From contig CAZXHG010000012.1 in assembly GCA_964639985.1 (NCBI GenBank), positions 1,254 to 65,253 of the forward strand: DNA of 64,000 nt, written 5' to 3'. The position numbers and the translations under genes are program-made. This stretch comes from an uncultured Rickettsiales bacterium. Lineage in GTDB: Bacteria; Myxococcota_A; UBA796; UBA9615; CAYRNR01. This document shows positions 2,599 through 26,911 of this stretch, one piece after another (position 1 is the stretch's first letter; each line of letters starts with the position of its first letter). The notes beneath the pieces were generated by a model. That model had not been told where the DNA came from. It saw only the letters and a program-made list of their open reading frames with translations, and ran no database searches.

Positions 2599-2599
2599 C

Positions 2600-8166: not shown

Positions 8167-8244
8167 GCTGTGCGGTTCGCGGCAGGTGAACAGGCGGGGG
8201 GCCGGGATCGGGCGGAGGTCCGCCGGGAGGAGGGGAGCACACGC

Positions 8245-14041: not shown

Positions 14042-14945
14042 GTGCCAGCCAGGCGGCAGCCGGGAGCAACTGGTTTTCGTGAAGGGCTGCCGCGCCGTCG
14101 GGCAGTGGCGCAGACGCGGCAGGCAGGTACGGTCTCAGCATCACGGATCCCATGGCCAGGTGCCTCACCCACCGGACCAGGACCGCCTCCACGAAGGCGA
14201 TCGCGATGCCCGCGGCGATCGACAGCACGAACACCAGCGTACTCGCGTGGTCCAGGATTTCCATGGGAGAGTGACCCTTCTCGAACAGCTCGTTCCAGCC
14301 CAGGATCCAGTCCGTCCACTCCAGCGCGGAATCGAGCACGCCGCCGCCGAGCATGGCGCCTGCACCCATGCCCAGGACGTCGCCCACCGCACCCAGGCCG
14401 CACAGCAGGACCGCGTATCCCACCACACCGATGCACCCGCAGCCCGTCCCCCCCGTGGCACAGCCCGCGCGCAGGTCGCCGGATTCCTCGGCCACGGCCA
14501 GCCCGCCCGCGATGCCCAGGGCCACGGCGACCACCGCGGGCAGGACGAATGACAACCAGATCACCACTTGGACGACGAAGGCCACCACCAGCACGACCAG
14601 CCACACGATCCAGCAGACCAGCGCCACCACCCACGAGGCCAGGTATCCGAGCACGAACAGGACGAACATCAAGGCTGCGGGAAGGAACACCACGAGCAGG
14701 GTGATCCCGGCCAGCTCGACATTGACGAGCAACTCGCCCCGGAACGTCTCCCTCGGTCTGATCGCAAGCCCGAGCACAGGCCCCACGGCCATGGGCAGCA
14801 GGATCACCGCCGTCCACCCGAGAAGCAGTGCGTCGAAACCGTCCAGGCTGAGAACGCACTCCCAGCCCATCCAGACCAGTCCCGTGACCACGACCACGGC
14901 GGTGATCAGGGCCAGCGTCCTCCGACGTGTCCAGGACCATTTCAC
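13989..14945 (-). CDS. Polytopic integral membrane protein, paralog A (about 8 TM helices), unknown function
   Basis: Highly hydrophobic 318 aa. Motif RPRETFRGELLVNVELAGITLL. C-terminal LRPYLPAASAPLPDGAAALHENQ. About 35% identical by eye to the 15270-16175 product. Confidence 0.55.
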   Translation of the reverse strand: MKWSWTRRRTLALITAVVVVTGLVWMGWECVLSLDGFDALLLGWTAVILLPMAVGPVLGLAIRPRETFRGELLVNVELAGITLLVVFLPAALMFVLFVLGYLASWVVALVCWIVWLVVLVVAFVVQVVIWLSFVLPAVVAVALGIAGGLAVAEESGDLRAGCATGGTGCGCIGVVGYAVLLCGLGAVGDVLGMGAGAMLGGGVLDSALEWTDWILGWNELFEKGHSPMEILDHASTLVFVLSIAAGIAIAFVEAVLVRWVRHLAMGSVMLRPYLPAASAPLPDGAAALHENQLLPAAAWLALVWFGVLAMFVCIGVAM

Positions 14946-14985
14946 GGTGTCGAGCAGACCTCCTCGGGCCGTCGCGCGAGCACGC

Positions 14986-15273
14986 TCATCCGCGTATGTG
15001 CAGCTCGACCGGCCTCACGCAGCGCGTGATCAGCAGCGCCGCGATCGCGATTGGATACAGCATCCAGTAGGCGCCCCAGAGCATCGCGAAGGCCCCGAAC
15101 GCGATGGGCAGTCCCCACCACGGGTGGCGCACGGCAAAGCGATCGATGCCGTGCTGGACCAGATGCACCTCGTAGTTGCCGCGGCGGAGAGCGAGCGAGA
15201 CGAGATCGAAGGACGTCTGCACGCCGAACCCGTCGATGATCGAACGATGGTCCTCTTGGTCGGATGCGCTCAT
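14986..15273 (-). CDS. Small membrane protein (~95 aa), translationally coupled to the upstream membrane protein
   Basis: Internal start MSASDQEDHRSIIDGF... of ORF 14986-15966. Its ATG overlaps the TGA of gene 15270-16175 (ATGA). C-terminal hydrophobic helices WWGLPIAFGAFAMLWGAYWMLYPIAIAALLI. Confidence 0.4.
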   Translation of the reverse strand: MSASDQEDHRSIIDGFGVQTSFDLVSLALRRGNYEVHLVQHGIDRFAVRHPWWGLPIAFGAFAMLWGAYWMLYPIAIAALLITRCVRPVELHIRG

Positions 15274-16175
15274 GCCTCTCCCCAGGTGGAAACGATGACC
15301 GTGGCCAGCGTGGCCGACCACACGAGCATCAGCCAGGCGGTCGCAGGAATGGACTGACGTTCGTCCAGCACGCTGACGCCATCGGGCAGCGGGGCGGATG
15401 CAGACGGCAGGAAGGGACGCAACCACAGCAACCGCATCATCGCGAGTCGCGCCCACCGCGACGACAGCGCCGCCGTGAAGGCGAGGGTCACGCCCAGTCC
15501 AGCGGTACACATCGCCGAGAAGATGGCGTGGTGGTTTGCCCTCGCGATGGTGCCCCTCATGAAATCGAACAGGAACCCCCACTCGGGTATCCAGCCCGTC
15601 CACTGGCGCGCGGCCACCACCACGTGTCCGTTGAAGGCATCCAGCCAGTGGCTGTCGAGGGAGGCCGTGACCCGGTGGGTGACAAGTGCGAGTAGCACAA
15701 CCCCGACGAGCGTGACCACGACGCCAATCCAGGGTTCCCCGGACCCATCCGATGCCAGGAACCCCGCCACGACGGAGCCGATGGCGGCCGCGTAGACCAG
15801 CAGCTGCAGCACCAGGGCGAGCAGCAGGACGATGATCCAGAACAGCCAGCAGGCAGCAACGGCGACGATCGAGCTGCCGTAGGTGAGCGCATAGACGACG
15901 AGGCCCAGCGCCCCTGGAGCGAAGATGGCCAGCAACGCCAGCTGCAGCAGCTCGAGGTTGACCCACGCCTCGCCGCGCACGGTCTCTCGGGGCCTCATGC
16001 TCAGCCCCATCAGCGCTCCGACGCCGGCGAGCGACACGACGATGCCGACGCCGATGCGGGGCGACATCATTCCCCCGCGGAGGTGATTCTCCAGGACGAG
16101 CCAGCCCATGCCCCCGCTCACGACGAGGATCGTCAGGATCGCCCAGTCGCGGTGGGAGGTGTGCCGGACGTTCAT
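15270..16175 (-). CDS. Polytopic integral membrane protein, paralog B
   Basis: 301 aa, about 8 TM helices. Motif RPRETVRGEAWVNLELLQLALL. C-terminal LRPFLPSASAPLPDGVSVLDERQ. Paralogous to 13989-14945. 4-nt overlap with upstream gene 16172-19105. Confidence 0.55.
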   Translation of the reverse strand: MNVRHTSHRDWAILTILVVSGGMGWLVLENHLRGGMMSPRIGVGIVVSLAGVGALMGLSMRPRETVRGEAWVNLELLQLALLAIFAPGALGLVVYALTYGSSIVAVAACWLFWIIVLLLALVLQLLVYAAAIGSVVAGFLASDGSGEPWIGVVVTLVGVVLLALVTHRVTASLDSHWLDAFNGHVVVAARQWTGWIPEWGFLFDFMRGTIARANHHAIFSAMCTAGLGVTLAFTAALSSRWARLAMMRLLWLRPFLPSASAPLPDGVSVLDERQSIPATAWLMLVWSATLATVIVSTWGEA

Positions 16176-19105
16176 CTCCAGTGCCTGTCGATCAATGCCC
16201 GAACCTCGCCCTTGCTCATGCGCTCGGTGGTGAAGCAGAGCAGCTCGAGCGGGGAGTCGATCTCCTGGCCGAACGGATCGTCGTCACCCAGCACCAGCGA
16301 ACCCAGCGATCGCGCAGCCCGGCCGAGGAGCGGTGGTTTCCTGAGACTCTCCCGGACCTCCCCGAGCGTCGTGCCTTCCCGGCGAACGCGGTGCAGAGCG
16401 AGCGCAGCCAGCCGCCTCAGCAGGTGATCTGCGTGCCTGCCGCGGGCCAGGCGGGCGAGCCAGGCCAGCTGATCGTAGTCGGGTGGGTGGTCGTACAGAT
16501 CCCGCCGGTTGATATGGTCGAGCTGGGCTCGCGGTGGGTAGTACCAGGCGCGTTGCAGGACGAGGAGCAACTGGGCGCCCGACAGGGAGTCCAGCGCACG
16601 TTGCTCCACAGCACACATGGATTCGTAGTCGTGTTCAGCGGCCCAGGCATCGGTCCTCGTGGCCAGGTTCCAGAGGAATCGCCATGCATTCCGATCCTGC
16701 AGCCCCTGCCTACGGATCGTGTCCTTCCAGTACTCTCGGACCTCTTCCGAGCCGACCATCCCCAGGATCAGCAGCTTCAGCGGCCCTGGCGGAGGCGTCA
16801 CGGGAGCATCGTCCGGCAGGAGCTCGAACACGGCTCGGAATCCTCCTTCCGAGTCAGCGTTGGCCAGCAGGACGCCGAGGTCGGGAGGGGAGGGCATCGC
16901 CCGGAACACCAGCGCGATCTGCGTCATCTCCTCGGCGGTGAGTGTGACCCTGGGCATCGGCCGACCTCGTAGCAGGGCGGACATCGCTCGGAAGATGTCG
17001 GGGAGCCCGGCCGTGGCGCGGCGCGAGGTTCCCAGCCACGCCTCGATCAGCTGAAGCGTCGCCCGCTCGCAGGATGCGGTCGGATGGGGTCCCGAACCAG
17101 AGCAACACTCGGCCAGCCGGCCAATGGTCGTCTCGTCCCGATCGCCAAGTCGCTGCAGGCACAGCTCGTTTCCCAGGGCTGCCAGGTCGCCGTTTTCGGC
17201 TCCGTCGCGCACGCCGAGCAGCAGCCACCGGATCGGCTGACCGAGCCGGGGTCCCAGGGCCGCGTCCACGCTCGCCTTCTGTCGTACGCCGAGCTCGCTC
17301 CATCCAGCCAGCAGTACCCGGGCCATGCCGGCGTCCATCTGTGGACTGCCGGCGTCAACGGCCTCAATCAGATTGCGTAGGACTCGCCTGAACCAGGCCT
17401 CCCTTGTGAGCGCCCGGGACGTCAGCTGCCTGAGGAGGAGCACGTCATGTCCAGCCCGACCGGCCAGGTCCGCCAGCACGAAGGCGCCGAGCGTGGAGCC
17501 GTCTCCGTCGCGCAGTGAGGCGATCAGGAAGTCGAGTTCGGGTGCCGAGCCTGTGCCGCCAGGCAATGCCTGGACGAGCGCGGCCCCGTCGGCGGCTTCC
17601 GGGGATCGCCCCTCGGAGAGGGTGAGGTACGCCCTGCCTGCGGGGGTTCCGCCGAGCGCCGAGAACAGACGAGTGCTGGTTCGTCCGTTCACGCGAGCGA
17701 CGCGTACCGCAGCCCAGAACAGCGTCCCGGCCGAGGCCTGGCGCCAGGCAGACAGCCAGGCCGCGTCGTCGGGATCGGGCAGGAACAGGTCCGCCCAGAT
17801 GTCGTGGGTCTCTCCCAGGGAGTGTCCTGCGGTCACGGCGGTATCGAGTCGCTGGCCTGCCTTGCGGGCCACGTGGTCCGGGAGGGGAAGGGTTCTCCAC
17901 AGGTTGGCTGCGTGCGGGACGCTGCCCTTGACCAGGCCGAGCAGGACGGCCAGCTCCTCGTGGTAGTTGTCGCGGTCTCGCGCGCAGGCCTCCAGCCAGG
18001 CGGGCTGCCAGGTGGTGTTCACCAGCTCAGGGAGGAAATCGCGGCCGCGGTCCTCGATGGCGTGGAGGATCGCGACGAGTGCCTCGACCTTCAGCACATC
18101 GAAGTCGAGGGCTGGTCGCTGATCGGTCGTGCGTGACAGCCATGCCTCGAGGTCCTGGAGCTGGGCCGACTCGCCGAGCACACCGCTGACGAGCCGGGCC
18201 GCCTCCTGCCACGACGCCTCGATGGGGATGGCGTCGTACGCCGCGTGCAACGGCAGGGCGGACGCCACGGCTTCGGTCAGCTGTCTGGGAGTCGAGCAGT
18301 CCCTGGCGACCTGCTCGAGCCATGCCACATACCGCCTGCCGGGCGTCAGGTCGATGTCATCGTCGCCGCGCCGCTCGCCTGCGATGACACGGACGCCGTC
18401 CATGGCCCGCATCCCGTTGGCGATGGCAACGGAGCCGTCCATCTCGATGAGCCCCGTTCCCACGGTCACGCGCCAGGCCATGGCGCGTGGCAAGGCGCAG
18501 AGGCACAGGCTGGCGAGATCCAGGAACTCCGCGTGTTCGCGCTTCCAGTCCTGCACGCTGAGCCCGTGGCCCGACATGAGCACTTCGAGCACGTCTCCGG
18601 CTTCAGTCAGCCAGTCCGGGGGCAGGTCGCCGTCCAGGAACATGTCGTCGTCGGTCGTGACAGCTGGAAGGTCCTTCTCGATCCCGGTGGTCGGTTCGGC
18701 ACGCAGGACCTGGTCGAGTTGGGAGGCCGAGGCGGCACTCCACGCCGACGCGGATACCACGAGGTAGTGGGCCTGCGTGAAGATCCTCCCCGGCAATCCC
18801 CTTCCCCCTTCGGACAGCCCACGAACCCGGCAGGCGACGACCCACGACGCCCCCTCGACCTCGAGGGGCTTCACGATGATGCCGCCACCGCGTTCGAACC
18901 AGGGGTGGTCCTGCCAGATGAACTGCTCGGATGCGCCGATGCCCACGACATCGGGACGGCAGTGGTCCTCCAGGGAACGAGCGAAGCCCACAGAGAATCC
19001 CGTGACGTCGTGCTCGGATCCCTTCACGATCGGACCATCGACGGTCTGGACGATCTTGCCGTATCGACACTGTTCCCAGATCACACGATCACTCCCTCGA
19101 AACAA
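16172..19105 (-). CDS. Large soluble hypothetical protein (977 aa), Ala/Leu-rich helical
   Basis: Long ORF with strong GC3 bias and no recognisable catalytic motif. Start lies just after the stop of GTPase gene 19110-19946. Confidence 0.55.
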   Translation of the reverse strand: MFRGSDRVIWEQCRYGKIVQTVDGPIVKGSEHDVTGFSVGFARSLEDHCRPDVVGIGASEQFIWQDHPWFERGGGIIVKPLEVEGASWVVACRVRGLSEGGRGLPGRIFTQAHYLVVSASAWSAASASQLDQVLRAEPTTGIEKDLPAVTTDDDMFLDGDLPPDWLTEAGDVLEVLMSGHGLSVQDWKREHAEFLDLASLCLCALPRAMAWRVTVGTGLIEMDGSVAIANGMRAMDGVRVIAGERRGDDDIDLTPGRRYVAWLEQVARDCSTPRQLTEAVASALPLHAAYDAIPIEASWQEAARLVSGVLGESAQLQDLEAWLSRTTDQRPALDFDVLKVEALVAILHAIEDRGRDFLPELVNTTWQPAWLEACARDRDNYHEELAVLLGLVKGSVPHAANLWRTLPLPDHVARKAGQRLDTAVTAGHSLGETHDIWADLFLPDPDDAAWLSAWRQASAGTLFWAAVRVARVNGRTSTRLFSALGGTPAGRAYLTLSEGRSPEAADGAALVQALPGGTGSAPELDFLIASLRDGDGSTLGAFVLADLAGRAGHDVLLLRQLTSRALTREAWFRRVLRNLIEAVDAGSPQMDAGMARVLLAGWSELGVRQKASVDAALGPRLGQPIRWLLLGVRDGAENGDLAALGNELCLQRLGDRDETTIGRLAECCSGSGPHPTASCERATLQLIEAWLGTSRRATAGLPDIFRAMSALLRGRPMPRVTLTAEEMTQIALVFRAMPSPPDLGVLLANADSEGGFRAVFELLPDDAPVTPPPGPLKLLILGMVGSEEVREYWKDTIRRQGLQDRNAWRFLWNLATRTDAWAAEHDYESMCAVEQRALDSLSGAQLLLVLQRAWYYPPRAQLDHINRRDLYDHPPDYDQLAWLARLARGRHADHLLRRLAALALHRVRREGTTLGEVRESLRKPPLLGRAARSLGSLVLGDDDPFGQEIDSPLELLCFTTERMSKGEVRALIDRHWR

Positions 19106-19109: not shown

Positions 19110-19946
19110 TCATCGGTTTAGACGCGAACGCCAGCATACGCCTCGGGCCAGGAACTCGATGGGCTCGTAGACCCGGTAGGGCCACCAATCCCGGTAGGCA
19201 TTCTCACCATCGAGGTGCCAGCCCTCCGGCCCCTGGATGGCCGCTCTCGCGCCCGTTCTCCGATCGAACCCGAACGCCGAGACCAGGAAGTAGCCGTCAC
19301 CCCCGGGCGCGACCGCATGGCGGACGACCTCGACGAAGGACTGCCCCAGCGCCTCGCGCACGGTCGATGCCGGCTTCAGCTGTTCCACCTTGCCGACGAC
19401 GTCCCGTGTGCCGGGGGCCACGTGCAGCTCGGCCATGGTCAGCGTGATCGCCATCCTGAGGAAGGCAGGGCGACCGCCCTGGATGCCCTTGCGCTCCCTG
19501 ACGAGATCGAGCAGCTCCGCGAAGCGGTCGATCAGGTTCGGGGGCCGCAGCTCCTGGTCTCCGGGAACCACGAAGAGCAAGGCGTCAGCCTGGGCCAGAT
19601 CGTCGAGCACGTCGTCGGAGAATCGCTGCTCCGGCGAGGGCACGCAGCCGCCTCCGGGCACGTCGACCATGGTCAGCTGGATGGATTCCTTGCCGAGTCC
19701 GAAGAACACGGAGCCAGGCAGGTCCGCGACGAACGAGTAGCGGTTCACCGCCGATGTGGCCACGATCAGCCTGCCCATCAGCACGTCGATCGCCCGGTCG
19801 TAGAGCCGGAACGCTGGCTCGTTGTCGGGTTCGGGCCGCACCTGCAGCGGCCTCGACGTCCTGCCCATGGCGTCGGACGCCAGCAGCAGGCTCGCGAGGT
19901 ACACGGTCTTGCCCGACCGTGTCGGGCCAGCGACGGCGACTCGCAT
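19110..19946 (-). CDS. P-loop GTPase (TRAFAC-like), first of a tandem pair
   Basis: Probable start MRVAVAGPTRSGKT (Walker A/G1 GPTRSGKT). G3-like MVDVPGGG. Start codon lies 2 nt after the stop of the preceding GTPase gene. Confidence 0.6.
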   Translation of the reverse strand: MRVAVAGPTRSGKTVYLASLLLASDAMGRTSRPLQVRPEPDNEPAFRLYDRAIDVLMGRLIVATSAVNRYSFVADLPGSVFFGLGKESIQLTMVDVPGGGCVPSPEQRFSDDVLDDLAQADALLFVVPGDQELRPPNLIDRFAELLDLVRERKGIQGGRPAFLRMAITLTMAELHVAPGTRDVVGKVEQLKPASTVREALGQSFVEVVRHAVAPGGDGYFLVSAFGFDRRTGARAAIQGPEGWHLDGENAYRDWWPYRVYEPIEFLARGVCWRSRLNR

Positions 19947-19948
19947 CG

Positions 19949-20889
19949 TCAGAGGTCCTTCGCCGCGATGACGGTGAAGCCCCTGCGACACACCAGCCCG
20001 GTCGCGACGTAGACGAACGGATCCAGCACCTGGAACGGTCTCCAGGCGTCGATCACGTCCTTGTAGTCACACGCCTCCTCCTGGACCACCAGCATCGAGT
20101 CCGTGGTCGGGTTGTAGTTGGGCAGACCGCTCTGATCCGGCAGGAAGCCGTACGCCGAGACGAAGCCGAGGGCGACCTGTGTTTCGGGCTGCAGCGAGTT
20201 GCGAAGCCTCGCCAGCGTTGGCTGGGCGAGCGTCTTCCTGAGGAACGCGACCGGGTCGGTGTCCCACACGTGCTCCAGCGCGCTGCACTTGCCCTGGGTC
20301 TCCTTCTGCGCCCACTTGTCGGCCTTGGTGAAGCAGATGGCGACGCGGTCGTATGGCAGCCGGTCGTACCCCACCTCGTAGATGAGCTTCGGCAGCTGGG
20401 TGAAGAAGGTCATCGCGTCGGGATCGTCAGCGCTGATGCAGAGGATCAGTCCATCGCCGTCATGCATCTCCGCGACGACCCGCTTCCTGAACTCCTCGAT
20501 CTGCTTGTGATCGACGTCCGCGGCGTTGGAGTCGGGGAACATCACGCCGCCGGGGCCGTCCCACATGACGAACGTCGTCTCGAGCTCCCTCTTGACCTTG
20601 GTGAAGAAACCACTCTCGACCCAGGAGACCGCCAGCTTGAAGGAGTACTTCTGCATACCCTGGGTCGCGCCCATGGGCAGTACGCCATTCCTCAGGGTGT
20701 TCTTCACCGTCGAGAACAGCTCCACCAGTTCGTCGGAGCGGGGGTACACGACCACGTTCTGGGGGTGGAACCTCCTGGGCTGGGTATCGCCGGCGAGCTC
20801 CAGTGTCGACAGCAGGCCGGTCTTCCCGACCTTGGTCGGACCGATGACGATGTAGCGCTTGGAGGACTCGATCTTCTCGACCTTCATGA
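19949..20889 (-). CDS. P-loop GTPase (TRAFAC class), second of the tandem pair
   Basis: Start MKVEKIESSKRYIVIGPTKVGKTG (G1). G3 WDGPGG. G4-like ICFTKADK (N/TKxD). ATG overlaps the TGA of the upstream radical-SAM-like gene (ATGA). Confidence 0.6.
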
Positions 20890-21600
20890 GTTCCCTCTTG
20901 TGATCTGTTCTTCGGTAGCGGGTGGGAGTCGCATCGCCACCATGGTTTCGACTCGCTTCGCAGCGTCTCTCGTCTGCAGTCCCGAGATCGACACGGCACC
21001 GGTAGGGTCGACCCGGATGGAGAAACCCTTGCGTTGCCGCTCCCAGGCCTCGTCCAGGGTGGCCTGGTCGTACCGGCTGCTCAGGCAGTGGATACGCTGG
21101 TTGGTGGAGCCTCGCCAGCGCGCCGTGTCGGCGTAGCTCCCCTGCTGGAACGGACCATCGACCAGCAGGTCGGTCGAGGCGAGCCAGCGCGCCGTGCCAT
21201 GGTCCGTCCTGCGGTTCAGCTGCTCGAGGGTGTATCCCGTGTAGACCATGCACGAGAGTCCCAGGGCCCGAGCGCCCTGGAGGAGTGTGGCCAGGGCCTC
21301 CGGCTGTTCGGACGGTTCCCCGCCGAGCACGGTGATGCCCTCGACCGGTCTGCCCGATTCGCGACACACGAGCCGTAGTCGGTCGAGGATGTCCGTGACG
21401 CGGATCTCGGACCCACCCGCCGGATCCAGCAGCCTCGGTGTGAGGCAGACCTCGGTGCACCTCGACGTGCAACCCTGGAACCACAGCGGGACCCTCCAGC
21501 CCGGCCCGTTGTGCAGGGTTGGCCGCAGGCTGTCGAGTCCATGTCCCAGGCGGACCGAATCGTCGGGGTCGTGAGCCTGATCGTGTGCCGCGTCCGTCAT
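20884..21600 (-). CDS. Radical-SAM-like 4Fe-4S single-cluster protein (NrdG/QueE activase-like) with atypical cysteine spacing
   Basis: VPLWFQGCTSRCTEVC resembles the NrdG/QueE cluster-binding loop but is spaced CX3CX3C. Size (238 aa) and the ITVLGGEP glycine-rich SAM-binding-like segment fit this family. Confidence 0.5.
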   Translation of the reverse strand: MTDAAHDQAHDPDDSVRLGHGLDSLRPTLHNGPGWRVPLWFQGCTSRCTEVCLTPRLLDPAGGSEIRVTDILDRLRLVCRESGRPVEGITVLGGEPSEQPEALATLLQGARALGLSCMVYTGYTLEQLNRRTDHGTARWLASTDLLVDGPFQQGSYADTARWRGSTNQRIHCLSSRYDQATLDEAWERQRKGFSIRVDPTGAVSISGLQTRDAAKRVETMVAMRLPPATEEQITRGNS

Positions 21601-21616: not shown

Positions 21617-23548
21617 CTAGGGTGTGAGCCCCACCTTTGGAGGCTGGTCTAGATCGATGGGCGGCCGCGCGTCGGTCCGGCTGAGCAGGGCCTCGCAGTC
21701 CTCCTCGAACGTCTCCTGCTCGTCGGCGAACTTCGCCACCAGGTTCCGGGTGTTGTCGTCCTGCGGGTTCCGCCGCATCCACCTCCGGACGTAGGCCTCG
21801 TCGATCTCCAGGGTGTCGTTGTAGAGCAGGTCGTCTTCCAGCTTGCCGAAGAACACCTTGACCATTCGCCGCGCTGACTGACCGGCCATCAGATCCGCCA
21901 AGCGGTCTTCGTCGAGTCCGCCCACCAGCTGCACGTCGCCCCCCAGCTTTCGAAGGCAGCCGTGGATGATCGCCAGCCTGCCGCGGCGCGAGGGCAGGCC
22001 GATGTAGAGGTGGGAGCGGAACCTCTCCTTGATCGCCGCGTCGATCCGTTCAGGGTCGTTGGTGTCGGCGATGTAGATGATGTTGGTGTCGATGCGTCCC
22101 GAGGGAGGCTCGAAGATGGTCTTGAACGCGTTGACCAGCCCCGCCATGTTCTCGTTGCGCTTGGAGAGGTACTCGTCGGCCTCGTTGAAGTAGACGATGA
22201 GCTGCTCCTTCTCCTTCCATCCCCGGTACAGGGCATCGAGCTTGTCCAGGCTGACATCTTGCAACCCCCCCGTGCTCAGGTCAGCGGCCTCGACCACCTC
22301 GATGGAGATCCGGCCCTCCAGCGCCGTCATCAGGGATTGCGCCAGCGTGGTCTTGCCGGTCCCCGGGGGTCCGTACACGAGCGCGGAGCATCGCTTGAAC
22401 GAGTTCTCGTAGGTCTTCAGGGTCTCCAGTCGGGCCTTCTCCGTCTCGCCGAACAGGCGTTGCTTCCGCTCGTGGATACGATCCATCACCTCCTCGCGAC
22501 GGAGCATCATGTGCCTGACCCGATGGATGTAATTCCAGACCTGTGACGGGGCGACGTACTCCTCGAGCGGGAAGCCCCTCATCTCGTCGCTCTCCACCTG
22601 TCCGGTTCGCCGCAGCGAGGGTGGGATCTCGCGCATGGCGGCGTACAGGGTGGAGTCGCTGGCCGATTTGGCGAACAGGGGGCCGTGGGGCTCCTGGACG
22701 GACAGCGGCTTGAGAAGCACCGGGATGCAGTGCTCGAGTCTCAGGTCTGGAAGCTGCTCCACCAGGTCCGGGGGGAGCCGGCGATCCTCCAGCCCCGCGC
22801 ACACGAACCCCCCCGTGGCCAGCCTCTCGACCGTTTCCTTCTCGCGCGTGAGGATGACGACATCGACCGGAGTGCTCTCGCACAACCCGGGGAGCTTGGA
22901 GAAGCGGTCCTCGAGCATGCCTCGTTCCCTGTGCTCGGGGATCTCCTGCTCCAGCCGGAACCTGTCCGGCATCAGGAACGCGTCGTCCACCAGCACGAGC
23001 GTGCGGCTCGTGGCCCCGTGAGGGATGGGATCGTGGTGCGAGAGGTTCCACTCCAGCCCGCAGCGCTCCTCCACGACCGCGAGCAGTTCCCTCAGCCGGT
23101 CCGGGAGCGTGTTGCCGTCGCGTGGCGGCGTCCAGATGATGCGGTCCGGGGTGCTGCGGATCCCCACGTCGCTCATCAGGCTGCCGAGGTCGAGGTCGTG
23201 CTCACGTCGATCCGCCGCGCCGGAGCGAGCCGTCGAATCATCGCGGCCCGCGGTCCCGTCCTCCTTCCCGCGGAAACGCCAGATCCCGGTCCAGGAGCGC
23301 AGCGCCGTCCGGGTGGCGATCGGGATGTCCGGCAGGTGGTTTCCACCGGTCGTGGCGACGACGATCTCGGTGTACGGGCAGGGCGCCAGGAAGGTCAGCA
23401 CGCACTCAAGCGGCGTCCTGGCCGGGGGACGGCGACAGCCCGCGTAGTGGAGGCCCTCCGCGCCGACGACGACCGCGACCCGTCCGCCCTCTCCCTCGCC
23501 GATGGAGCGCAGCTTGGTGAGACTCTGCCGGGTGTGCGCGTCGCTCAC
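21617..23548 (-). CDS. AAA+ ATPase (classical AAA family) with ~350-aa N-terminal domain
   Basis: Walker A VYGPPGTGKTTLAQSL. Walker B LIVYFNEADE. Classical AAA second-region-like IKERFRSHLYIGLPS. Confidence 0.7.
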   Translation of the reverse strand: MSDAHTRQSLTKLRSIGEGEGGRVAVVVGAEGLHYAGCRRPPARTPLECVLTFLAPCPYTEIVVATTGGNHLPDIPIATRTALRSWTGIWRFRGKEDGTAGRDDSTARSGAADRREHDLDLGSLMSDVGIRSTPDRIIWTPPRDGNTLPDRLRELLAVVEERCGLEWNLSHHDPIPHGATSRTLVLVDDAFLMPDRFRLEQEIPEHRERGMLEDRFSKLPGLCESTPVDVVILTREKETVERLATGGFVCAGLEDRRLPPDLVEQLPDLRLEHCIPVLLKPLSVQEPHGPLFAKSASDSTLYAAMREIPPSLRRTGQVESDEMRGFPLEEYVAPSQVWNYIHRVRHMMLRREEVMDRIHERKQRLFGETEKARLETLKTYENSFKRCSALVYGPPGTGKTTLAQSLMTALEGRISIEVVEAADLSTGGLQDVSLDKLDALYRGWKEKEQLIVYFNEADEYLSKRNENMAGLVNAFKTIFEPPSGRIDTNIIYIADTNDPERIDAAIKERFRSHLYIGLPSRRGRLAIIHGCLRKLGGDVQLVGGLDEDRLADLMAGQSARRMVKVFFGKLEDDLLYNDTLEIDEAYVRRWMRRNPQDDNTRNLVAKFADEQETFEEDCEALLSRTDARPPIDLDQPPKVGLTP

Positions 23549-25200
23549 AGGTCGTCCTCCAGCTTATCCAGCCCCTTGGTCACTCCTCGCCAGGCGTCCG
23601 CGTCGACCTGGTTGGCGGCTTCGGCGGCCGTGGTCACGCACGCCTCGGACCGGTTCTGGGTGTCCACCTGCTGCTCGGTGACCTCACCCTCGGCCTGCAT
23701 CGCCCGGACGACCGCCTGAGCGCGGCTGCCGCAGGTCCGGTTGGAGGCGTGACCGTAGCCGTCCACCGTGTAGGAGCCATCGATGTCGAGGTGGACGTCG
23801 ACTCCCACGCCATCGAAGTTGCACTCGACGATCTTGGCGGACTTGGGATCATGAGGGGTTGCGTAGCGCTGTTCCACGCCGGTCAGGGGGCCGTAGATGT
23901 CGGCGAGGCGCTTGACGACCGTTGGCGCCACCTCGGCCCGATCCCGTGCTTGCCTGCGGACGATGGGCGTGGTGGCGTTGATGACCAGCGCCTGCTCCTC
24001 GAGCTTGTCGAGCTGCCGCTCGTGCCGGTCGGCCTGCACATCCAGCCGGCCGTAGCGGTCGTAGCTCTCGGCGGCCTCGCGCTCGATCCGCGCGGCGATC
24101 CGCCGGGCCTGGCCGGCCTCGGCCTCGAAGTATTCCTGGATGGCCTCATCCTCCAGGGAGCCCGCGACCTCCTGTGATCGCTGCATGAGCCGCTCCCGCA
24201 TGTCCACCAGCTCCGCCTCTCGCCGCATGGCTCGATAGGTCAGGGAGCGGGCCCCCGTCATGGCGCCGTGGGCCGCTGCCAGGGCTGCGGCCGTGTTGTT
24301 GGTCTCCAGCAGCTCGAAGACCTCCAGCTGCTTCAGCTCCGCCTGGTTCCGCTCTCCATCGAGCCGCAGGCGCTGGCAGTGGGCGTCATCGTGCTGCTGC
24401 GTCTCCTCCTGCGCCATGGTGACCAGCACTCGCGCTCGTGAAGCCTCGTCCTGCTCCTTGGCGAGGCGCTCTGCCCGGTCCTTCTCCAGCTCTGCCTCCA
24501 CGCGGTCGATCTCGGCCTGGAGCCGTCGCTCGGTCTCCTCTCTGCGACGTTCGGCCTCCTCGAGCCCCTCGGCCATCTCGTGGCGGACGTCGACGAACTC
24601 CCGGCGCACGGCCTCGACGTGCTGCCGGTGCGCGACATCCAGCGCGTCGATCTCCGCGGCCTGCTGTTGCAGCTCGCCGTGCACGGCGCGGAACTCCTGC
24701 TCGGTCCAGCGGGCCACGCCCTCGATCTCGCTGCCGAGTGCCTGGATGTCGGCTCCCTGGCGCTCGATCTCGTCCGTGACCTCGCCGATGGCCTGGCGGG
24801 TGGATTCCCCGAGGGCGTCGAGATCCCCGGCCAGCTGGATCTGGTTCGCTGCCAGGCCATGCAGCTCACCCTGCTGTCGCGTGAGCTCGCTGCGGGTCTC
24901 CTGGTAGCGCCGGTTCGCCTGCTCCGTGGCCCGTTCCTGGGCTCGCGCCAGGCGGCTCTGCGTATCCGAGATGGCTCGAACGTCGTTCTGGACGCCCTGG
25001 TTGACGCGGATCTGTCTCTGCAGATCCCCGCGCGTCCGGCCGAGCTCCTCCATGCGATTCCGCAGCTGGTTGCCCAGCGAGGTCGCTCTGCGGCGATACT
25101 GCTCGGCCTCGGCAGCGGCCTCCTCCTCCGCCAGCCGCCGCCTTGCCGCATCCCGCTCGGCGATGGAGTGGTAGATACATCCGTTGACCGTGTAGCTCAT
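23545..25200 (-). CDS. Coiled-coil protein (~550 aa) with a C-terminal globular region
   Basis: Probable start MSYTVNGCIYHS at 25200, with AGGAAAGGAA SD; the ORF opens at 25254. Long heptad-like Q/E/R/L-rich stretch. 4-nt overlap with the AAA gene. Confidence 0.5.
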   Translation of the reverse strand: MSYTVNGCIYHSIAERDAARRRLAEEEAAAEAEQYRRRATSLGNQLRNRMEELGRTRGDLQRQIRVNQGVQNDVRAISDTQSRLARAQERATEQANRRYQETRSELTRQQGELHGLAANQIQLAGDLDALGESTRQAIGEVTDEIERQGADIQALGSEIEGVARWTEQEFRAVHGELQQQAAEIDALDVAHRQHVEAVRREFVDVRHEMAEGLEEAERRREETERRLQAEIDRVEAELEKDRAERLAKEQDEASRARVLVTMAQEETQQHDDAHCQRLRLDGERNQAELKQLEVFELLETNNTAAALAAAHGAMTGARSLTYRAMRREAELVDMRERLMQRSQEVAGSLEDEAIQEYFEAEAGQARRIAARIEREAAESYDRYGRLDVQADRHERQLDKLEEQALVINATTPIVRRQARDRAEVAPTVVKRLADIYGPLTGVEQRYATPHDPKSAKIVECNFDGVGVDVHLDIDGSYTVDGYGHASNRTCGSRAQAVVRAMQAEGEVTEQQVDTQNRSEACVTTAAEAANQVDADAWRGVTKGLDKLEDDL

Positions 25201-25273
25201 CTCGATTCCTTTCCTGACCGGCCAGGGGGGCGAGCGATGGGCCGCTCCGGGCAAGTCCGCCCCAGCATGGGTA

Positions 25274-25734
25274 TCAATCCTCGCTCGAGGACGGGGCGGC
25301 CGCGCGGCTGAGGCTGTCGAGGAGGTCCGTCCAGCCGACGAGGACAGTCACTCGCGAGTCGGTTCGCTCGCACTCGTCGTGGAGTTGCTCCCGGCGTCTG
25401 GCGGCATCGTCGACCTCTGCGGTGTACGCGGCGAGCTCTCCCTCGACGTCCTCGGCCAGCGTCGGGCCGATGATGCGGTCCGTCCACTGCCCGACGAGGT
25501 CGACGAGTCTGCGGTCACATCCCGTGGGTAGGGGCACATCGCCCAGCGTCATCTCCCGGCGGATCACCTCGGCGTTGACTCGTGCCGTACCATCGGGGAG
25601 CTGGCCGTCCATACCCTCGGTGGATTCGAAGACCTCACGCTCGAGCCGCAGCAGCGCGTCCTCGACATCCTCCCCGGACTGGAAACGACTCCTCAGCTCC
25701 TCGAATCGCGCCCGCAGCTTGTCAATCGTCATGA
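25274..25734 (-). CDS. Small acidic/coiled-coil hypothetical protein (~153 aa)
   Basis: Internal start MTIDKLRARFEELRSRFQSG of ORF 25274-26311; the N-terminal extension is arginine-rich artefact. Overlaps the stop of the upstream gene by ~13 nt. Confidence 0.4.
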
Positions 25735-26462
25735 CGCACCTCGGCCAGGACGTCCTTGGGGATGCTCCATGTCTCCTCCAGGTGTGCGTCGGCGAGGCGA
25801 GGCTCCACGAAATCGGACAGGAGGCGGCGGGCGTGCACATCCGGCAGGTCGGCCAGGGCCTGCATGACCGCCGGATCGATGCGGTGCCAGTCCTCAAGGC
25901 GGCTCCGGGTCTCCCTCTCCTCACGCTCCAGGCTCTGCTTGCGCTCCTCGAGCGCTTCCTCCTCGGCCAGGACATCCTGGATCTCGGCCGACCGTAGGGC
26001 AGCCGCTTGAACTCGGGAGGCGACTCGCGCACGGTACTCGCCCAGGACCGGGGCGAGCTGCGTGATGCGCGCCTCCACCATGGCGGCAGGTTGTCTGTCG
26101 ATGTCCCTCCATTCCAGGAACCGCCCGGCCTCCTCGACGATCTCGGCATCCAGCGCGGCCTGACAGGACGCCAATCGGTGCTCGATCCCATCCGCGACAG
26201 CCTGCGTCCGCGCGCGTATGGTCTGCTCCGCAGCCTGCTCGGTCTCGGCGATCGCCTCCACGAGTGATGCCCTGTCGATCCTCGTTTGCTGCAGCTCGCG
26301 CTGGAGAGCATCCCTGCGAGATTCCATCTCGTCGGGCCGTTGCAGCTCGCTCAGCCTCGCTCGCAGCTGGCTGACCTCGGCTTCGAGACGCTGTTCCACC
26401 TCCCGCGTCCGGCCTCCGAGCAGTGACGCGACCCGCTCCACCCAGGCTTCGGCCTCGCCCAT
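25722..26462 (-). CDS. Coiled-coil hypothetical protein (~246 aa)
   Basis: Start MGEAEAWVERV. Its ATG overlaps the TGA of the upstream gene (TGATG). E/R/A/L-rich heptads. Confidence 0.4.
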   Translation of the reverse strand: MGEAEAWVERVASLLGGRTREVEQRLEAEVSQLRARLSELQRPDEMESRRDALQRELQQTRIDRASLVEAIAETEQAAEQTIRARTQAVADGIEHRLASCQAALDAEIVEEAGRFLEWRDIDRQPAAMVEARITQLAPVLGEYRARVASRVQAAALRSAEIQDVLAEEEALEERKQSLEREERETRSRLEDWHRIDPAVMQALADLPDVHARRLLSDFVEPRLADAHLEETWSIPKDVLAEVRHDD

Positions 26463-26911
26463 CAGGTCCCCCCTTCCCCCCTCAACCGCCGCTGGATGGC
26501 CCCCAGCTTCGCGGTCAGGTCCGCGACCTCCAGCTTCGCCCTGTCCACGGAAGTCCTGAGCGCGTCGACCTCGGCCTCGATCCGCTTGGCTCGCTCCGAC
26601 GCGGCCAGGGCTCGCTCGATGCCCGCCTCGAGCTCGCGCCGCTCCCCGCGGAGCTGCGAGATCCGGGGCGTCTCCACGTGCGCCTCCGGTGCGCTGTCGC
26701 CTACTCCAGCCAGCGATATCAGCGCGCTGAACTCCCGGCTCTCCGAGGAGCTCATGAGGAACCCCTGCATCCACTTGACCGCCGACTTGTGCAGGTCGAC
26801 GTCGTCCGGGCCGGCTGCCGCGATCGACTCGCGCATCTGCGTCAGGCAGGCATCTGCACCCTCCTGCCGGTAGACCTCGACCCAGGCCGCAGCCATCTCC
26901 CTGTGTGTCAT
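26462..26911 (-). CDS. Coiled-coil hypothetical protein (~149 aa)
   Basis: Start MTHREMAAAWVEVYRQEG, directly after the stop of the upstream gene. C-terminal ELEAGIERALAASERAKRIEAEVDALRTSVDRAKLEVADLTAKL coiled coil. Confidence 0.4.
   Translation of the reverse strand: MTHREMAAAWVEVYRQEGADACLTQMRESIAAAGPDDVDLHKSAVKWMQGFLMSSSESREFSALISLAGVGDSAPEAHVETPRISQLRGERRELEAGIERALAASERAKRIEAEVDALRTSVDRAKLEVADLTAKLGAIQRRLRGEGGT

What the first reader, a model, noticed from the sequence alone, without database searches (positions are those of the whole stretch)
19110..21600. Tandem paralogous TRAFAC GTPases coupled (ATGA overlap) to an NrdG/QueE-like protein with atypical CX3CX3C spacing
A radical-SAM-like single-cluster protein lies directly upstream of two ~280-310-aa GTPases that look like paralogues of each other (GPT(K/R)xGKT, D(G/V)PGG). 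The radical-SAM stop overlaps the first GTPase ATG.

The cluster-binding loop GCTSRCTEVC has one extra residue compared with the canonical CX3CX2C of NrdG/QueE/PflA. It may be a divergent radical SAM (or a non-radical Fe-S or Zn site) that activates or modifies a partner. Candidates are the adjacent AAA ATPase or the GTPases, by analogy with glycyl-radical activases or HydE/HydG plus HydF GTPase logic.
Basis: partly seen in the sequence, partly recalled or inferred. Interest (0 to 1): 0.6.

Follow-up and report, generated by a model that had tools for sequence, protein, structure and literature searches.

The report
Radical-SAM, GTPase pair in unannotated operon
The odd iron-sulfur enzyme and the two GTP-binding proteins are real and sit at the junction of two modules in a 17-gene, almost wholly unannotated operon that looks like a bacterial conflict (immunity-type) system, and the enzyme's shifted cysteine motif marks a whole clade of more than 100 sequences.

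Summary
J (20884-21600, minus strand) is a PflA/NrdG-type radical-SAM protein. Its cluster loop is CX3CX3C. K (19949-20887) and L (19110-19946) are paralogous TRAFAC GTPases, and J and K overlap by ATGA.

- **The shifted motif marks a clade.** All 110 homologues whose cluster loop is present carry C-x3-C-x3-C; five truncated ones lack the loop. The 103 such sequences form one clade. Canonical CX3CX2C relatives lie outside it, and some of those belong to the published FtsH ternary conflict systems.
- **J has a fixed place.** It is the last gene of a conserved cassette: helical protein, GTPase B, C, D, coiled-coil proteins E-H, AAA+ ATPase I, then J. I to J is the constant junction.
- **K and L are ancient paralogues, not a recent duplicate.** K has intact G1-G5 motifs; L has a degenerate G4 (TMAE). 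With M and membrane proteins N and S they also occur alone, without any radical-SAM gene.
- **The GTPase family tracks the clade.** It is found only next to CX3CX3C-type J: 13 of 29 loci against 0 of 78.
- **Almost nothing is annotated.** None of A-H, M, N or O matches Pfam, NCBIfam or PADLOC.

The defence-type function and a protein-directed radical chemistry are inferred, not shown.

The parts
32092..35667 (-). A: 1191-aa protein, first gene of the operon. Its N-terminal ~400 aa are shared with the 452-aa protein that heads the stand-alone K-L-M systems.
   Evidence: ORF and codon-position GC. tblastn to L088, L093 and L094. No Pfam, NCBIfam or PADLOC hit.
31138..31947 (-). B: third P-loop GTPase (GDTQVGKTS, TKCE, AYGY). 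It is a core cassette member and is homologous to the K/L family. Its start codon is uncertain.
   Evidence: hhalign of A4 against A3 gives probability 98.6%, E 8.5e-16, over 226 columns. Orthologues are present in L084 and L087-L091.
28542..31130 (-). C: 862-aa, apparently helical (by composition, not modelled), W/L/R-rich core protein with no known family.
   Evidence: Orthologues in L084 (short), L087 and L089-L091. No family hits. Not homologous to M.
26914..28473 (-). D: ~519-aa core protein. Its C-terminal half looks vWA-like by eye (VAVVFDRTCPD ... LIVGNSPP ... IPVVYLFL), but no profile supports this.
   Evidence: Alignment A5 of 8 orthologues. No Pfam or PDB profile hit.
23545..26911 (-). 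E (26462-26911), F (25722-26462), G (25274-25732) and H (23545-25200/25254): four coiled-coil-type core proteins. H ends in a conserved small domain (KS..VECxF...DGYGH.SN..C).
   Evidence: Conserved order and sizes in 8 loci. Only weak coiled-coil-type hits.
21617..23548 (-). I: 643-aa AAA+ ATPase. It has a cassette-specific N-terminal domain (~1-370) and a classical AAA module (390-517). Its start overlaps H's stop (GTGA), and J follows 16 nt after I's stop.
   Evidence: PF00004 at E 7.9e-18. The N-domain is conserved while the ATPase module differs between loci. The I-J junction is conserved.
20884..21600 (-). J: 238-aa PflA/NrdG-type radical-SAM protein. It carries NGPGWR, C44-x3-C48-x3-C52, GGEP(93-96) and RGSTNQR, plus a ~65-aa family-specific C-terminal extension. 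It is the last gene of the conserved cassette.
19949..20887 (-). K: 312-aa K-type TRAFAC GTPase with G1 GPTKVGKT, G3 DGPGG, G4 TKAD and G5 SAYGF. It overlaps J by ATGA.
19110..19946 (-). L: 278-aa L-type paralogue with G1 GPTRSGKT, G3 DVPGG, a degenerate G4 (TMAE) and G5 SAFGF.
   Evidence: Orthologues next to a K-type gene in L093 and L094.
16172..19105 (-). M: 970-977-aa protein that follows the GTPases wherever they occur. It has a conserved N-terminal ~120-340 aa and no known family.
   Evidence: tblastn and HMM hits in L087, L088, L090, L093-L095, L101 and L102. No Pfam or PDB hit.
13989..16175 (-). N (15270-16175) and O (13989-14945) are paralogous hydrophobic, apparently multi-pass membrane proteins. 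S (14986-15273) is a 95-aa hydrophobic, apparently membrane protein. M/N and N/S overlap by ATGA. Membrane topology was read from the sequences and not run through a predictor.
   Evidence: N and S orthologues follow M in L093 and L094.
12101..13927 (-). P: CHASE2-domain membrane protein and last gene of the run. It is seen only in this organism's contigs.
   Evidence: PF05226 at E 1.8e-15. Gene calls in L081-L083.

Best explanation
The finding is the joint between two modules of one 17-gene, ~23.6-kb minus-strand operon (35667 to 12101). The operon has the anatomy of an NTPase-gated biological-conflict (immunity or abortive-type) system.

**Module 1 (A-J).** This is a conserved cassette:
- a large helical protein (A);
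- a GTPase (B);
- two large proteins (C and D);
- four coiled-coil proteins (E-H);
- an AAA+ ATPase with a cassette-specific N-domain (I);
- always last, the radical-SAM protein J.

J belongs to a monophyletic clade of PflA/NrdG-like activases. In this clade one residue has been inserted between the second and third cluster cysteines (CX3C-T-x2-C). Every other SAM or activase motif is kept. The three-Cys site therefore most likely still holds a site-differentiated [4Fe-4S] cluster that cleaves SAM. I infer that J abstracts a hydrogen atom from a protein or peptide substrate that the AAA+ ATPase I remodels or presents. That step would be the system's effector or arming step.

**Module 2 (K-L-M-N-S, plus O and P here).** This is a self-contained double-GTPase unit:
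- K (canonical GTPase) and L (G4-degenerate) probably work as a heterodimeric switch;
- M is its adaptor or sensor;
- N, S and O are membrane effectors.

The unit exists alone elsewhere. It is also often bolted, with translational coupling, onto the end of module 1.

**Shown:** the anatomy, homologies, motif conservation, synteny and co-occurrence.

**Inferred:** Fe-S and SAM chemistry, a protein substrate, the heterodimer, and the conflict function.
For: **J's identity**
- Fer4_12 at 92 bits; best NCBIfam hits are NrdG and PflA.
- AF2 model with pLDDT 90.9; top Foldseek PDB hits are PflA 8fo0, 3cb8 and 3c8f at E ~3e-8 and 27-28% identity.

**Motif and clade**
- C-x3-C-x3-C is present in all 110 of the 115 listed homologues whose loop is present. 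GGEP is in all, and exactly three Cys are invariant.
- 78 of 80 more distant relatives have CX3CX2C.
- In an NJ tree of 192 sequences, the 103 CX3CX3C sequences form one clade with no canonical member inside.
- All 19 exact DNA-pattern hits in metagenomes are J homologues.

**Synteny**
- The order B-C-D-E-F-G-H-I-J, or most of it, is found in L084 and L087-L092.
- J always follows I. The two overlap in L084 and L088-L092; in L087 J's start call is uncertain.

**GTPases**
- K against L gives E 3e-17.
- The family has 370 cluster representatives among 1.84 billion.
- G1, G3 and G5 columns are invariant or nearly so, and G4 T-K nearly invariant (the Asp varies; degenerate in L-type).
- 30 of 60 members weakly hit Pfam DO-GTPase2; others hit GTP_EFTU or MMR_HSR1.
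- The K model has pLDDT 92.5 and matches Rab, Rag, Arf and MglA at probability 1.0.
- B is homologous to K/L at hhalign probability 98.6%.

**Modularity**
- A'-K-L-M-N-S occurs without J in L093 and L094.
- K/L-family genes are found in 13 of 29 CX3CX3C loci against 0 of 78 canonical loci, Fisher p 4e-9.
- A Clostridia variant (L012) again combines two GTPases, a large protein, coiled coils, J and an I-like AAA.

**Conflict-system flavour**
- The canonical sister radical-SAM sits in FtsH ternary systems (fvmX5/6/7 and FtsH). Kaur et al. 2020 (PMC7159879) describe these as conflict systems.
- The downstream module is variable: GTPase-M, or a vWA-PP2C-kinase triad, or nothing.
- The ATPase module of I is swapped between loci.
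- TIR/TPR, CHAT, integrase and transposase genes are neighbours.
- The gene junctions are tightly overlapping.
Against: - No experiment exists for any component, and nothing here shows defence.
- PADLOC finds nothing except weak IetA-like similarity of the AAA module.
- The altered Cys spacing removes the usual Cx-aromatic-C geometry. SAM cleavage could therefore be impaired or changed, and AF2 cannot judge metal binding.
- No substrate was identified, and I found no glycyl-radical-type motif among the residues invariant across the core-protein alignments. The conserved SAYGF of the GTPases is simply the G5 box.
- About half of the J loci lack K/L, so a direct J-K functional link is not required.
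- Only about 30 loci were sampled, and most are short metagenomic contigs.
- Coiled coils, an AAA+ and GTPases could equally suggest a membrane-remodelling or cytoskeletal machine.
Confidence: 0.55

Rival explanations
1. J is a non-radical iron-sulfur (or zinc) protein. On this view the extra residue has converted an activase into a redox or oxygen sensor, or a structural module, that regulates the AAA+ ATPase.
For: - The spacing between Cys2 and Cys3 is the part kept in HmdB and QueE, two of the listed non-canonical enzymes; the variants listed in PMC4389238 are PhnJ, HmdB, QueE and ThiC.
- The usual aromatic residue before the last Cys is absent.
- The library holds no report of a working CX3CX3C radical-SAM enzyme.
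Against: - The SAM-binding GGE motif, the GPGxR activase loop, D144/D148 and the RGS.NQ motif are all invariant. A mere sensor would not need them.
- Exactly three Cys are conserved, which leaves an open iron site. A four-ligand Zn or closed cluster site would show four.
- The modelled fold is a complete PflA-like core at pLDDT 91.
Confidence: 0.15
2. J makes a small-molecule product, for example a modified (GTP-derived) nucleotide as viperins and QueE do. That product would serve as an antiviral or signalling molecule, with the GTPases and the AAA+ acting as regulators.
For: - After PflA, the next structural matches are QueE and viperin-like enzymes.
- Prokaryotic viperins are defence radical-SAM enzymes (established knowledge).
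- Three GTP-binding proteins are encoded in the same operon.
Against: - Sequence and fold are clearly closest to the protein-directed activases PflA and NrdG.
- The GPGxR loop typical of that group is kept; its typicality is my own recollection of Vey et al. 2008.
- J lacks the larger barrel and nucleotide-binding C-terminal part of viperins (238 aa, about 140 aa aligned).
- No PADLOC viperin hit.
Confidence: 0.15
3. The operon is not a conflict system. It is instead a membrane-remodelling, cytoskeletal or developmental machine (coiled-coil filaments, dynamin- or septin-like GTPases and a Vps4-like AAA), with J as a maturation factor.
For: - There are four coiled-coil proteins and three GTPases.
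- The best NCBIfam hit of I's ATPase module is CdvC.
- Membrane proteins N, S and O and a CHASE2 sensor are encoded downstream.
Against: - The ATPase module of I is replaced by unrelated AAA+ types in orthologous cassettes.
- The downstream modules vary between loci.
- The loci are scattered across Planctomycetes-, Clostridia- and high-GC-type contigs, next to TIR, CHAT, integrase and transposase genes.
- The nearest radical-SAM relatives sit in systems described as conflict systems.
Confidence: 0.15
4. J is an ordinary anaerobic ribonucleotide reductase activase (NrdG) or QueE, and K and L are recent tandem duplicates of a housekeeping GTPase.
For: - JGI annotation pipelines name many homologues 'anaerobic ribonucleoside-triphosphate reductase activating protein'.
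- The best NCBIfam hit is TIGR02491.
Against: - The TIGR02491 score is 80.4 against a cut-off of 126.1.
- No NrdD or other glycyl-radical enzyme was found among the ORFs scanned, which cover the operon, 13-46221 and two downstream ORFs; ORFs in 46-64 kb were only spot-checked.
- The conserved context is the cassette.
- K-type and L-type are separate old subfamilies.
- The family has only about 370 cluster representatives among 1.84 billion.
Confidence: 0.03

Closest known systems
The 'distinctive radical SAM' of the FtsH ternary (FtsH-vWA-MoxR) conflict systems (Kaur, Burroughs, Iyer and Aravind 2020, eLife, PMC7159879)
   Same: - It is a close outgroup relative (the CPLRCPGCC-type sequences are the nearest canonical ones in the search), at about 39-45% identity, with the same Fer4_12/NrdG-like core and GGEP motif.
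- It too is encoded close to, though not adjacent to, a classical AAA (FtsH-type) ATPase (fvmX6 and fvmX5 lie between).
- It is found in the same kinds of bacteria: Planctomycetes, Myxococcota and Actinobacteria.
   Different: - That clade has the canonical CX3CX2C (CPLRCPGCC).
- Its neighbours are fvmX5, fvmX6, fvmX7 and FtsH with a peptidase M41 domain.
- None of the window's proteins hits an fvmX, MoxR or vWA model.
- The GTPase family is absent from all 78 canonical loci.
Glycyl-radical-enzyme activases PflA and NrdG
   Same: - The partial-barrel fold, the GPGxR loop, the GGE motif and the RGS.NQR motif.
- PflA is the best solved structural match, and NrdG is the best curated family.
   Different: - There is one extra residue between Cys2 and Cys3.
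- J falls below the NrdG and PflA equivalog cut-offs.
- It has a ~65-aa C-terminal extension.
- No glycyl-radical enzyme partner is present; the partner is an AAA+ ATPase.
DO-GTPase/GAP1 'GTPase-centric' conflict systems (Kaur et al. 2020; Pfam PF19975 and PF19993)
   Same: - Two paralogous TRAFAC GTPases sit side by side.
- They are followed by a large dedicated partner protein and by membrane components.
- Half of the family members give weak DO-GTPase2 hits.
   Different: - K and L fall below the Pfam cut-offs.
- The Walker B region is DxPGG, without the glutamate said to define DO-GTPases.
- M has no GAP1 domain hit.
- No zinc ribbon motif is visible by eye in K or L (not profile-tested).
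Known non-canonical radical-SAM cluster motifs: ThiC CX2CX4C, HmdB CX5CX2C, QueE CX14CX2C, PhnJ (PMC4389238)
   Same: Each is a family-wide departure from CX3CX2C within an otherwise recognisable SAM-radical enzyme.
   Different: - In J the change is a single residue in the second spacer (X2 to X3), within a classical N-terminal loop.
- No biochemical evidence exists yet.

Membership tests
Radical SAM superfamily, PflA/NrdG-type (Pfam Fer4_12) | Profile match above the curated cut-off | tested here: met
   PF13353 at 92.4 bits against a cut-off of 22, covering 2-137 of 137 profile positions.
Radical SAM superfamily, PflA/NrdG-type (Pfam Fer4_12) | CX3CX2C cluster motif | tested here: not met
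   The loop is C44-TSR-C48-TEV-C52, that is CX3CX3C. The alignment to PflA needs a one-residue gap. The same spacing is seen in all 110 homologues whose loop is present.
Radical SAM superfamily, PflA/NrdG-type (Pfam Fer4_12) | GGE SAM-binding motif and partial (beta/alpha) barrel fold | tested here: met
   G93 G94 E95 P96 are invariant. The AF2 model has pLDDT 90.9, and its top Foldseek hits are PflA at E ~3e-8.
Radical SAM superfamily, PflA/NrdG-type (Pfam Fer4_12) | [4Fe-4S] binding and reductive SAM cleavage | not testable with these tools
   This needs anaerobic reconstitution, EPR and a 5'-deoxyadenosine assay.
NrdG (TIGR02491) / class III RNR activase | Equivalog score at or above the cut-off, and a cognate NrdD | tested here: not met
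   J scores 80.4 bits against a cut-off of 126.1. No NrdD or Gly_radical hit was found in any operon or flank protein scanned. ORFs in 46-64 kb were only spot-checked.
Glycyl-radical-enzyme activase (functional class) | DGxGxR-type loop, and a partner protein with an RVxG[FWY] glycine loop | tested here: inconclusive
   The loop is present as N-G-P-G-W-R, with G32 P33 G34 R36 invariant. No RVxG-type motif is visible among the residues invariant across the B-I alignments, but no motif search was run on the full sequences.
TRAFAC-class GTPase | G1 (GxxxxGK[ST]), G3 (DxxG), G4 ([NT]KxD) and G5 (SA.) motifs, and a Ras-like fold | tested here: met
   K carries GPTKVGKT, DGPGG, TKAD and SAYGF. Its model (pLDDT 92.5) matches Rab, Rag, Arf and MglA at probability 1.0. 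L keeps G1, G3 and G5, but its G4 is TMAE.
DO-GTPase1/2 (Kaur et al. 2020; PF19975, PF19993) | Pfam score at or above 27 bits; glutamate in Walker B; GAP1 protein downstream | tested here: not met
   K gives no hit, and L gives 15.6 and 13.0 bits. The Walker B regions are WDGPGG and VDVPGG. M has no GAP1 or other Pfam hit. A distant relationship is likely, because 30 of 60 family members hit DO-GTPase2, the best at 1e-7.
FtsH ternary system (FtsH-vWA-MoxR) | MoxR ATPase, vWA protein, double-AAA FtsH-type protein and fvmX domains | tested here: not met
   No MoxR, vWA or fvmX model is hit by any of A-P. The fvmX5/6/7 and FtsH models are hit strongly in the sister loci L003 and L007. D's vWA-like look is an impression from the sequence only.
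HydE/HydG-HydF maturation logic | HydF-type GTPase scaffold together with HydE/HydG radical-SAM enzymes and a hydrogenase | tested here: not met
   No Pfam or NCBIfam hit to Hyd families for J, K or L. The GTPase module also occurs without any radical-SAM gene.

The most novel reading that the evidence does not exclude
J and its more than 100 relatives would be a new functional class of radical-SAM enzyme with a fixed CX3CX3C cluster loop. It would work hand in hand with an AAA+ unfoldase to carry out a radical modification or backbone cleavage of a protein. That step would be the execution step of a previously undescribed multi-GTPase-gated immune or cell-death system. The system is found in structurally complex bacteria, with a Firmicute variant.
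Probability: 0.3. Interest if true: 0.8.

Novelty: new variant of a known kind. Interest (0 to 1): 0.62.

Why it matters
- **A clean test case for radical-SAM enzymology.** If J is active, it tests how much the canonical CX3CX2C loop can change. Here a single insertion is fixed across a whole clade, with a canonical sister clade available for comparison.
- **A large block of unannotated biology.** The surrounding 10- to 17-gene cassette has no Pfam, NCBIfam or PADLOC coverage. It combines three paralogous GTPases, an AAA+ ATPase and a radical-SAM enzyme.
- **A possible new conflict-system type.** It would extend the NTPase-gated conflict systems predicted for multicellular-type bacteria, none of which has been characterised experimentally. 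It would also add radical chemistry on proteins to the known effector repertoire.
- **A practical correction.** Automated annotation currently calls these proteins anaerobic RNR activases, and that name is wrong.

Tried and rejected
- **Word-indexed homologue searches for the GTPases.** The search with K found only K itself, and the search with the family profile found three proteins. The exhaustive HMMER search was needed to find the family.
- **Genome-collection scan with the J alignment.** This turned out to be a useful outgroup, but it cost the only genome scan.
- **SAYGF as a glycyl-radical-like target.** I considered that the invariant SAYGF of the GTPases might be such a target for J. 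I rejected this because it is the G5 (SA.) box and J often occurs without K.
- **C and M as paralogues.** This would have made A-B-C a copy of A'-K/L-M. hhalign gave probability 0.1%.
- **vWA identity of D, HEPN identity of P's C-terminus, and any fold for M, A-N, I-N and H-C.** I found no Pfam or PDB sequence support.
- **Literature search for CX3CX3C.** It gave only a typo (NifB) and an unrelated peptide motif. One broad search, 'Fer4_12 defense GTPase', was uninformative.
- **Supplement of Kaur et al.** It holds no listing that could be matched.
- **Organism identity.** The cluster look-up returned no names.
- **afdb50 fold search.** This library was unavailable.


Full report
**1. The observation**

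All genes of interest lie on the minus strand. The window is high in G+C (0.64-0.75 over most of it). I used codon-position GC to pick the real frames among the many overlapping ORFs.

J is 20884-21600 and encodes 238 aa.
- It matches Pfam Fer4_12 over the whole model, at E 3.8e-26 and 92.4 bits against a cut-off of 22.
- Its best curated family is NrdG (TIGR02491), at 80.4 bits. This is below the 126.1-bit equivalog cut-off. PflA-type activases follow.
- The cluster loop reads WFQGC-TSR-C-TEV-C. In the HMMER alignment to E. coli PflA (3c8f), PflA needs a one-residue gap (CLMRCL-YC). The GGE SAM motif aligns, LGGEPSEQ against SGGEAILQ.

K and L follow J directly.
- K is 19949-20887 (312 aa). 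Its ATG overlaps J's TGA as ATGA.
- L is 19110-19946 (278 aa) and starts 2 nt after K's stop.
- K and L align end to end at 25% identity, E 3e-17.

**2. The cysteine spacing marks a clade**

A search of 5.8 billion proteins gave 783 relatives of J at E <= 1e-5.
- Among the 120 best, 5 are N-terminally truncated and lack the loop.
- All 110 of the remaining 115 carry C-x3-C-x3-C. In about 100 of them it is the strict form C-x3-C-T-x2-C. About a dozen weaker hits read CPLRCPGCC, which contains both the canonical CX3CX2C and an extra Cys.
- All carry GGEP.

In a 35-sequence alignment only three cysteines are invariant (C44, C48, C52). Also invariant are G32 P33 G34 R36 (the activase-type GPGxR loop), G93 G94 E95 P96, D144, D148, and W162 G164 S165 N167 Q168.

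The 80 more distant relatives fetched from species-representative genomes (<= 45% identity) behave differently.
- 78 have the canonical CX3CX2C.
- One locus gave no readable motif.
- One Clostridia genome has the intermediate-looking CSIRCCNHC.

A neighbour-joining tree of 192 sequences puts all 103 CX3CX3C sequences in one clade, with no canonical sequence inside it.

I also searched the metagenome collection with an exact degenerate DNA pattern for W.QGC...CT..CLNP. It found 19 places, and all 19 encode J homologues.

The AF2 model of J has pLDDT 90.9. It is most similar to PflA (8fo0, 3cb8, 3c8f; E ~3e-8; 27-28% identity), then to QueE and viperin-like enzymes.

The paper library holds no report of a CX3CX3C radical-SAM class. 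The variants listed in PMC4389238 are PhnJ, HmdB CX5CX2C, QueE CX14CX2C and ThiC CX2CX4C.

**3. What surrounds J**

J is not part of a three-gene unit. It lies in a run of 17 tightly packed minus-strand genes from 35667 to 12101. Several start and stop codons overlap: H/I as GTGA, and J/K, M/N and N/S as ATGA.

I compared contigs that encode J homologues of 44-58% identity (L084, L087-L092). They show the same gene order upstream:
- a ~650-1200-aa protein (A);
- a ~240-aa P-loop protein (B);
- a ~800-aa protein (C);
- a ~510-aa protein (D);
- proteins of ~145, ~245, ~155 and ~470 aa, mostly coiled-coil (E-H);
- a ~570-685-aa AAA+ ATPase (I);
- J, always last.

J's start overlaps I's stop in L084 and L088-L092; in L087 J's called start is uncertain.

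The N-terminal ~370 residues of I are conserved between loci. Its ATPase module is not:
- classical AAA in the window;
- AAA with AAA_lid_6 in L084 and L087-L089;
- AAA_2 or Sigma54-type in L091 and L092.

One contig (L085) has only a vWA gene, a PP2C-AAA fusion and J.

Apart from the AAA module, Fer4_12 and the CHASE2 domain of P, none of the operon's proteins matches Pfam, NCBIfam or PADLOC. This holds even at permissive thresholds and when the domains are cut out and searched alone.

**4. The GTPases**

K had no detectable relatives in the word-indexed search. An exhaustive HMMER search with a K+L profile found 370 cluster representatives at E <= 1e-3 among 1.84 billion proteins, of which 198 were at E <= 1e-10.

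The family has these features:
- an invariant P-loop (G16, K22);
- D110-x-P-G113-G (G3);
- nearly invariant T187-K188 of a TKxD G4 box;
- an S-A-[YF]-G-F G5 box;
- a C-terminal W-x-P motif.

Half of 60 members give weak hits to Pfam DO-GTPase2 (best 1e-7). Others hit GTP_EFTU, MMR_HSR1, SRPRB or Arf. The AF2 model of K (pLDDT 92.5) matches Rab, Rag, Arf and MglA structures at probability 1.0. The TRAFAC GTPase assignment therefore holds.

The motif table separates two subfamilies:
- **K-type:** about 300 aa, G4 TKAD, and WRPFxVLDP.
- **L-type:** about 280 aa, G4 degenerated to TMAE, SMAE or TKSE, and WWPYRVFEP. It has roughly 25 representatives.

L is thus an old paralogue with an altered base-recognition box, not a recent tandem copy.

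B, the second gene of the cassette, also belongs to this superfamily. hhalign gives probability 98.6% and E 8.5e-16 over 226 columns, including the G5 and C-terminal motifs. The operon therefore encodes three paralogous GTPases.

**5. Two modules**

Downstream of J the content varies between loci:
- K+L+M in the window;
- K+M in L087 and L088;
- K+K'+M in L090;
- a vWA-PP2C-kinase-type triad in L084 and L092;
- nothing on the same strand in L089 and L091.

In the 19 metagenome hits, K lies directly downstream of J in 7.

The converse also holds. Two contigs found through L-type proteins (L093, L094) carry a 452-aa protein homologous to the N-terminus of A. It is followed by K, L, M, N and S, with no AAA or radical-SAM gene at all. 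So K-L-M-N-S is a self-contained double-GTPase unit. In the window it is appended, with translational coupling, to the end of the A-J cassette.

The link between the GTPase family and this radical-SAM clade is nevertheless specific. Profile scans of all fetched loci find K/L-type genes in 13 of 29 CX3CX3C loci and in 0 of 78 canonical loci (Fisher p 4e-9). Counting B as well gives 16 of 29.

The Clostridia contig L012 (42% G+C) shows a rearranged version with the same cast: a hydrophobic-N-terminus (apparently membrane-anchored) GTPase, a second GTPase, a 931-aa protein, a coiled-coil protein, J, another coiled-coil protein and an I-like AAA.

**6. Relation to what is known**

The canonical sister clade (CPLRCPGCC) sits in Planctomycete loci. 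Its neighbours hit Pfam fvmX6 (E 1e-148), fvmX5, fvmX7 and an FtsH-type AAA with peptidase M41. This is the FtsH ternary conflict system of Kaur et al. 2020. That paper mentions a 'distinctive' radical-SAM effector predicted to modify a peptide (PMC7159879).

Actinobacterial canonical relatives follow a ~540-aa AAA protein. The AAA-radical-SAM pairing is therefore older than the cassette described here.

The same paper defines the DO-GTPase/GAP1 systems. These have two paralogous TRAFAC GTPases, a dedicated large partner protein and frequent membrane components. K-L-M-N-S resembles these in logic, but it fails the membership tests:
- scores below the Pfam cut-offs;
- no Walker-B glutamate;
- no GAP1 hit for M.

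The window's system is best described as an undescribed relative that combines themes of both published systems.

**7. How it most likely works (inference)**

J keeps everything a PflA/NrdG-type activase needs except the exact loop spacing. It has exactly three conserved cysteines. The simplest reading is a site-differentiated [4Fe-4S] cluster that still binds and cleaves SAM.

Its nearest relatives act on proteins, and its fixed, usually overlapping neighbour is an AAA+ remodelling ATPase. I therefore propose that I presents a protein or peptide, possibly one of the fast-evolving small proteins E or G, or H, for hydrogen abstraction by J.

B would gate the cassette. K and L would gate the appended membrane-effector unit, probably as a dimer with one degenerate partner, as in other dimer-activated GTPases.

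Several features fit a conflict system rather than housekeeping:
- the variable downstream modules;
- the swapped ATPase modules;
- the loci scattered across distantly related lineages (high-GC, Planctomycete and Clostridia contigs);
- neighbours such as TIR-TPR, CHAT-TPR, integrase and transposase genes.

None of this has been tested. I could not identify a substrate or a glycyl-radical-type motif, and the altered loop might abolish SAM cleavage.

**8. Verdict**

- **Right:** J is a divergent activase-type radical-SAM protein with a conserved triad, and the AAA ATPase is its partner.
- **Wrong:** recent tandem duplication and HydF-like logic.

The feature is a new variant of known kinds, both as an enzyme clade and as a system. 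It sits in a large block of unannotated genes and offers a clear set of experiments.

Noticed in passing
window 31138-31947 (-): B is a third, very divergent paralogue of the K/L GTPase family (G4 TKCE, G5 AYGY). It sits near the head of the same operon, 11 kb upstream of K. The operon therefore has three GTPases, not two.
   Followed up: yes
window 21617-23548 (-); L084, L087-L092: The AAA+ protein I keeps its N-terminal ~370-aa domain across loci. Its ATPase module, however, is replaced by different AAA+ types: classical AAA, AAA with lid_6, and AAA_2 or Sigma54-like.
   Followed up: partly
L093:7662-15066 and L094:7709-15066: A stand-alone operon with no radical-SAM or AAA gene. It consists of a 452-455-aa protein homologous to the N-terminus of A, then K-type, L-type, M, N and the small hydrophobic protein S. 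Its neighbours include an integrase and a kinase-FGE-sulfatase fusion.
   Followed up: partly
L012:3275-14395 (uncultured Clostridia MAG, 42% G+C): A rearranged low-GC version of the system. It has a hydrophobic-N-terminus (apparently membrane-anchored) GTPase, a second GTPase, a 931-aa protein, a coiled-coil protein, J with the loop CSIRCCNHC (an extra Cys next to Cys2), another coiled-coil protein and an I-like AAA.
   Followed up: partly
L084:10666-14464; L092:11548-14307; L085:7341-9994: In other loci the GTPase-M module after J is replaced by a vWA + PP2C + kinase-like trio (TerY-P-triad-like). In L085 a PP2C domain is fused to the AAA protein directly upstream of J.
   Followed up: partly
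window 12101-13927 (-): The CHASE2 protein P ends in a cytoplasmic region containing ...LRRIRNLWAHS..., an R-N-x3-H pattern reminiscent of HEPN RNase motifs. No profile supports this.
   Followed up: partly
window 13989-16175 (-): N and O are paralogous hydrophobic, apparently multi-pass membrane proteins. They share RPRET.RGE..VN.EL and LRP[FY]LP.ASAPLPDG. A 95-aa hydrophobic ORF (S, 14986-15273) lies between them. N and S recur after M in L093 and L094, but O does not.
   Followed up: partly
L003:12533-16132: The FtsH-type ATPase of the sister FtsH ternary system in an Isosphaera MAG is interrupted by an intein with a LAGLIDADG domain.
   Followed up: no
L001:8323-10534; L020:8143-10498: In Microbacterium and Amycolatopsis genomes, a canonical-motif relative of J directly follows a ~540-aa classical AAA protein. 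In Amycolatopsis an EspG-family gene (type VII secretion) is nearby. The AAA-radical-SAM pairing therefore predates the cassette.
   Followed up: partly
window 13-12060 (+): Four large plus-strand genes converge on the operon's end: an 861-aa protein with a SHOCT tail, a 1007-aa protein with no hit, an 840-aa papain-family (C1) peptidase and a 1296-aa TPR protein. They may form another conflict-type cluster.
   Followed up: no
window 38399-43174 (+): A single 1591-aa ORF joins carbamoyltransferase N and C domains (77-658) to a Ser/Thr kinase domain (1077-1378). G+C drops to 0.57-0.59 across 40-44 kb.
   Followed up: no
window 51755-53857 (-) and 60171-62780 (+): Two more Ser/Thr kinases, one fused to a formylglycine-generating-enzyme-like (FGE-sulfatase) domain. 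The same kinase-FGE fusion lies near the related loci L085 and L094.
   Followed up: no
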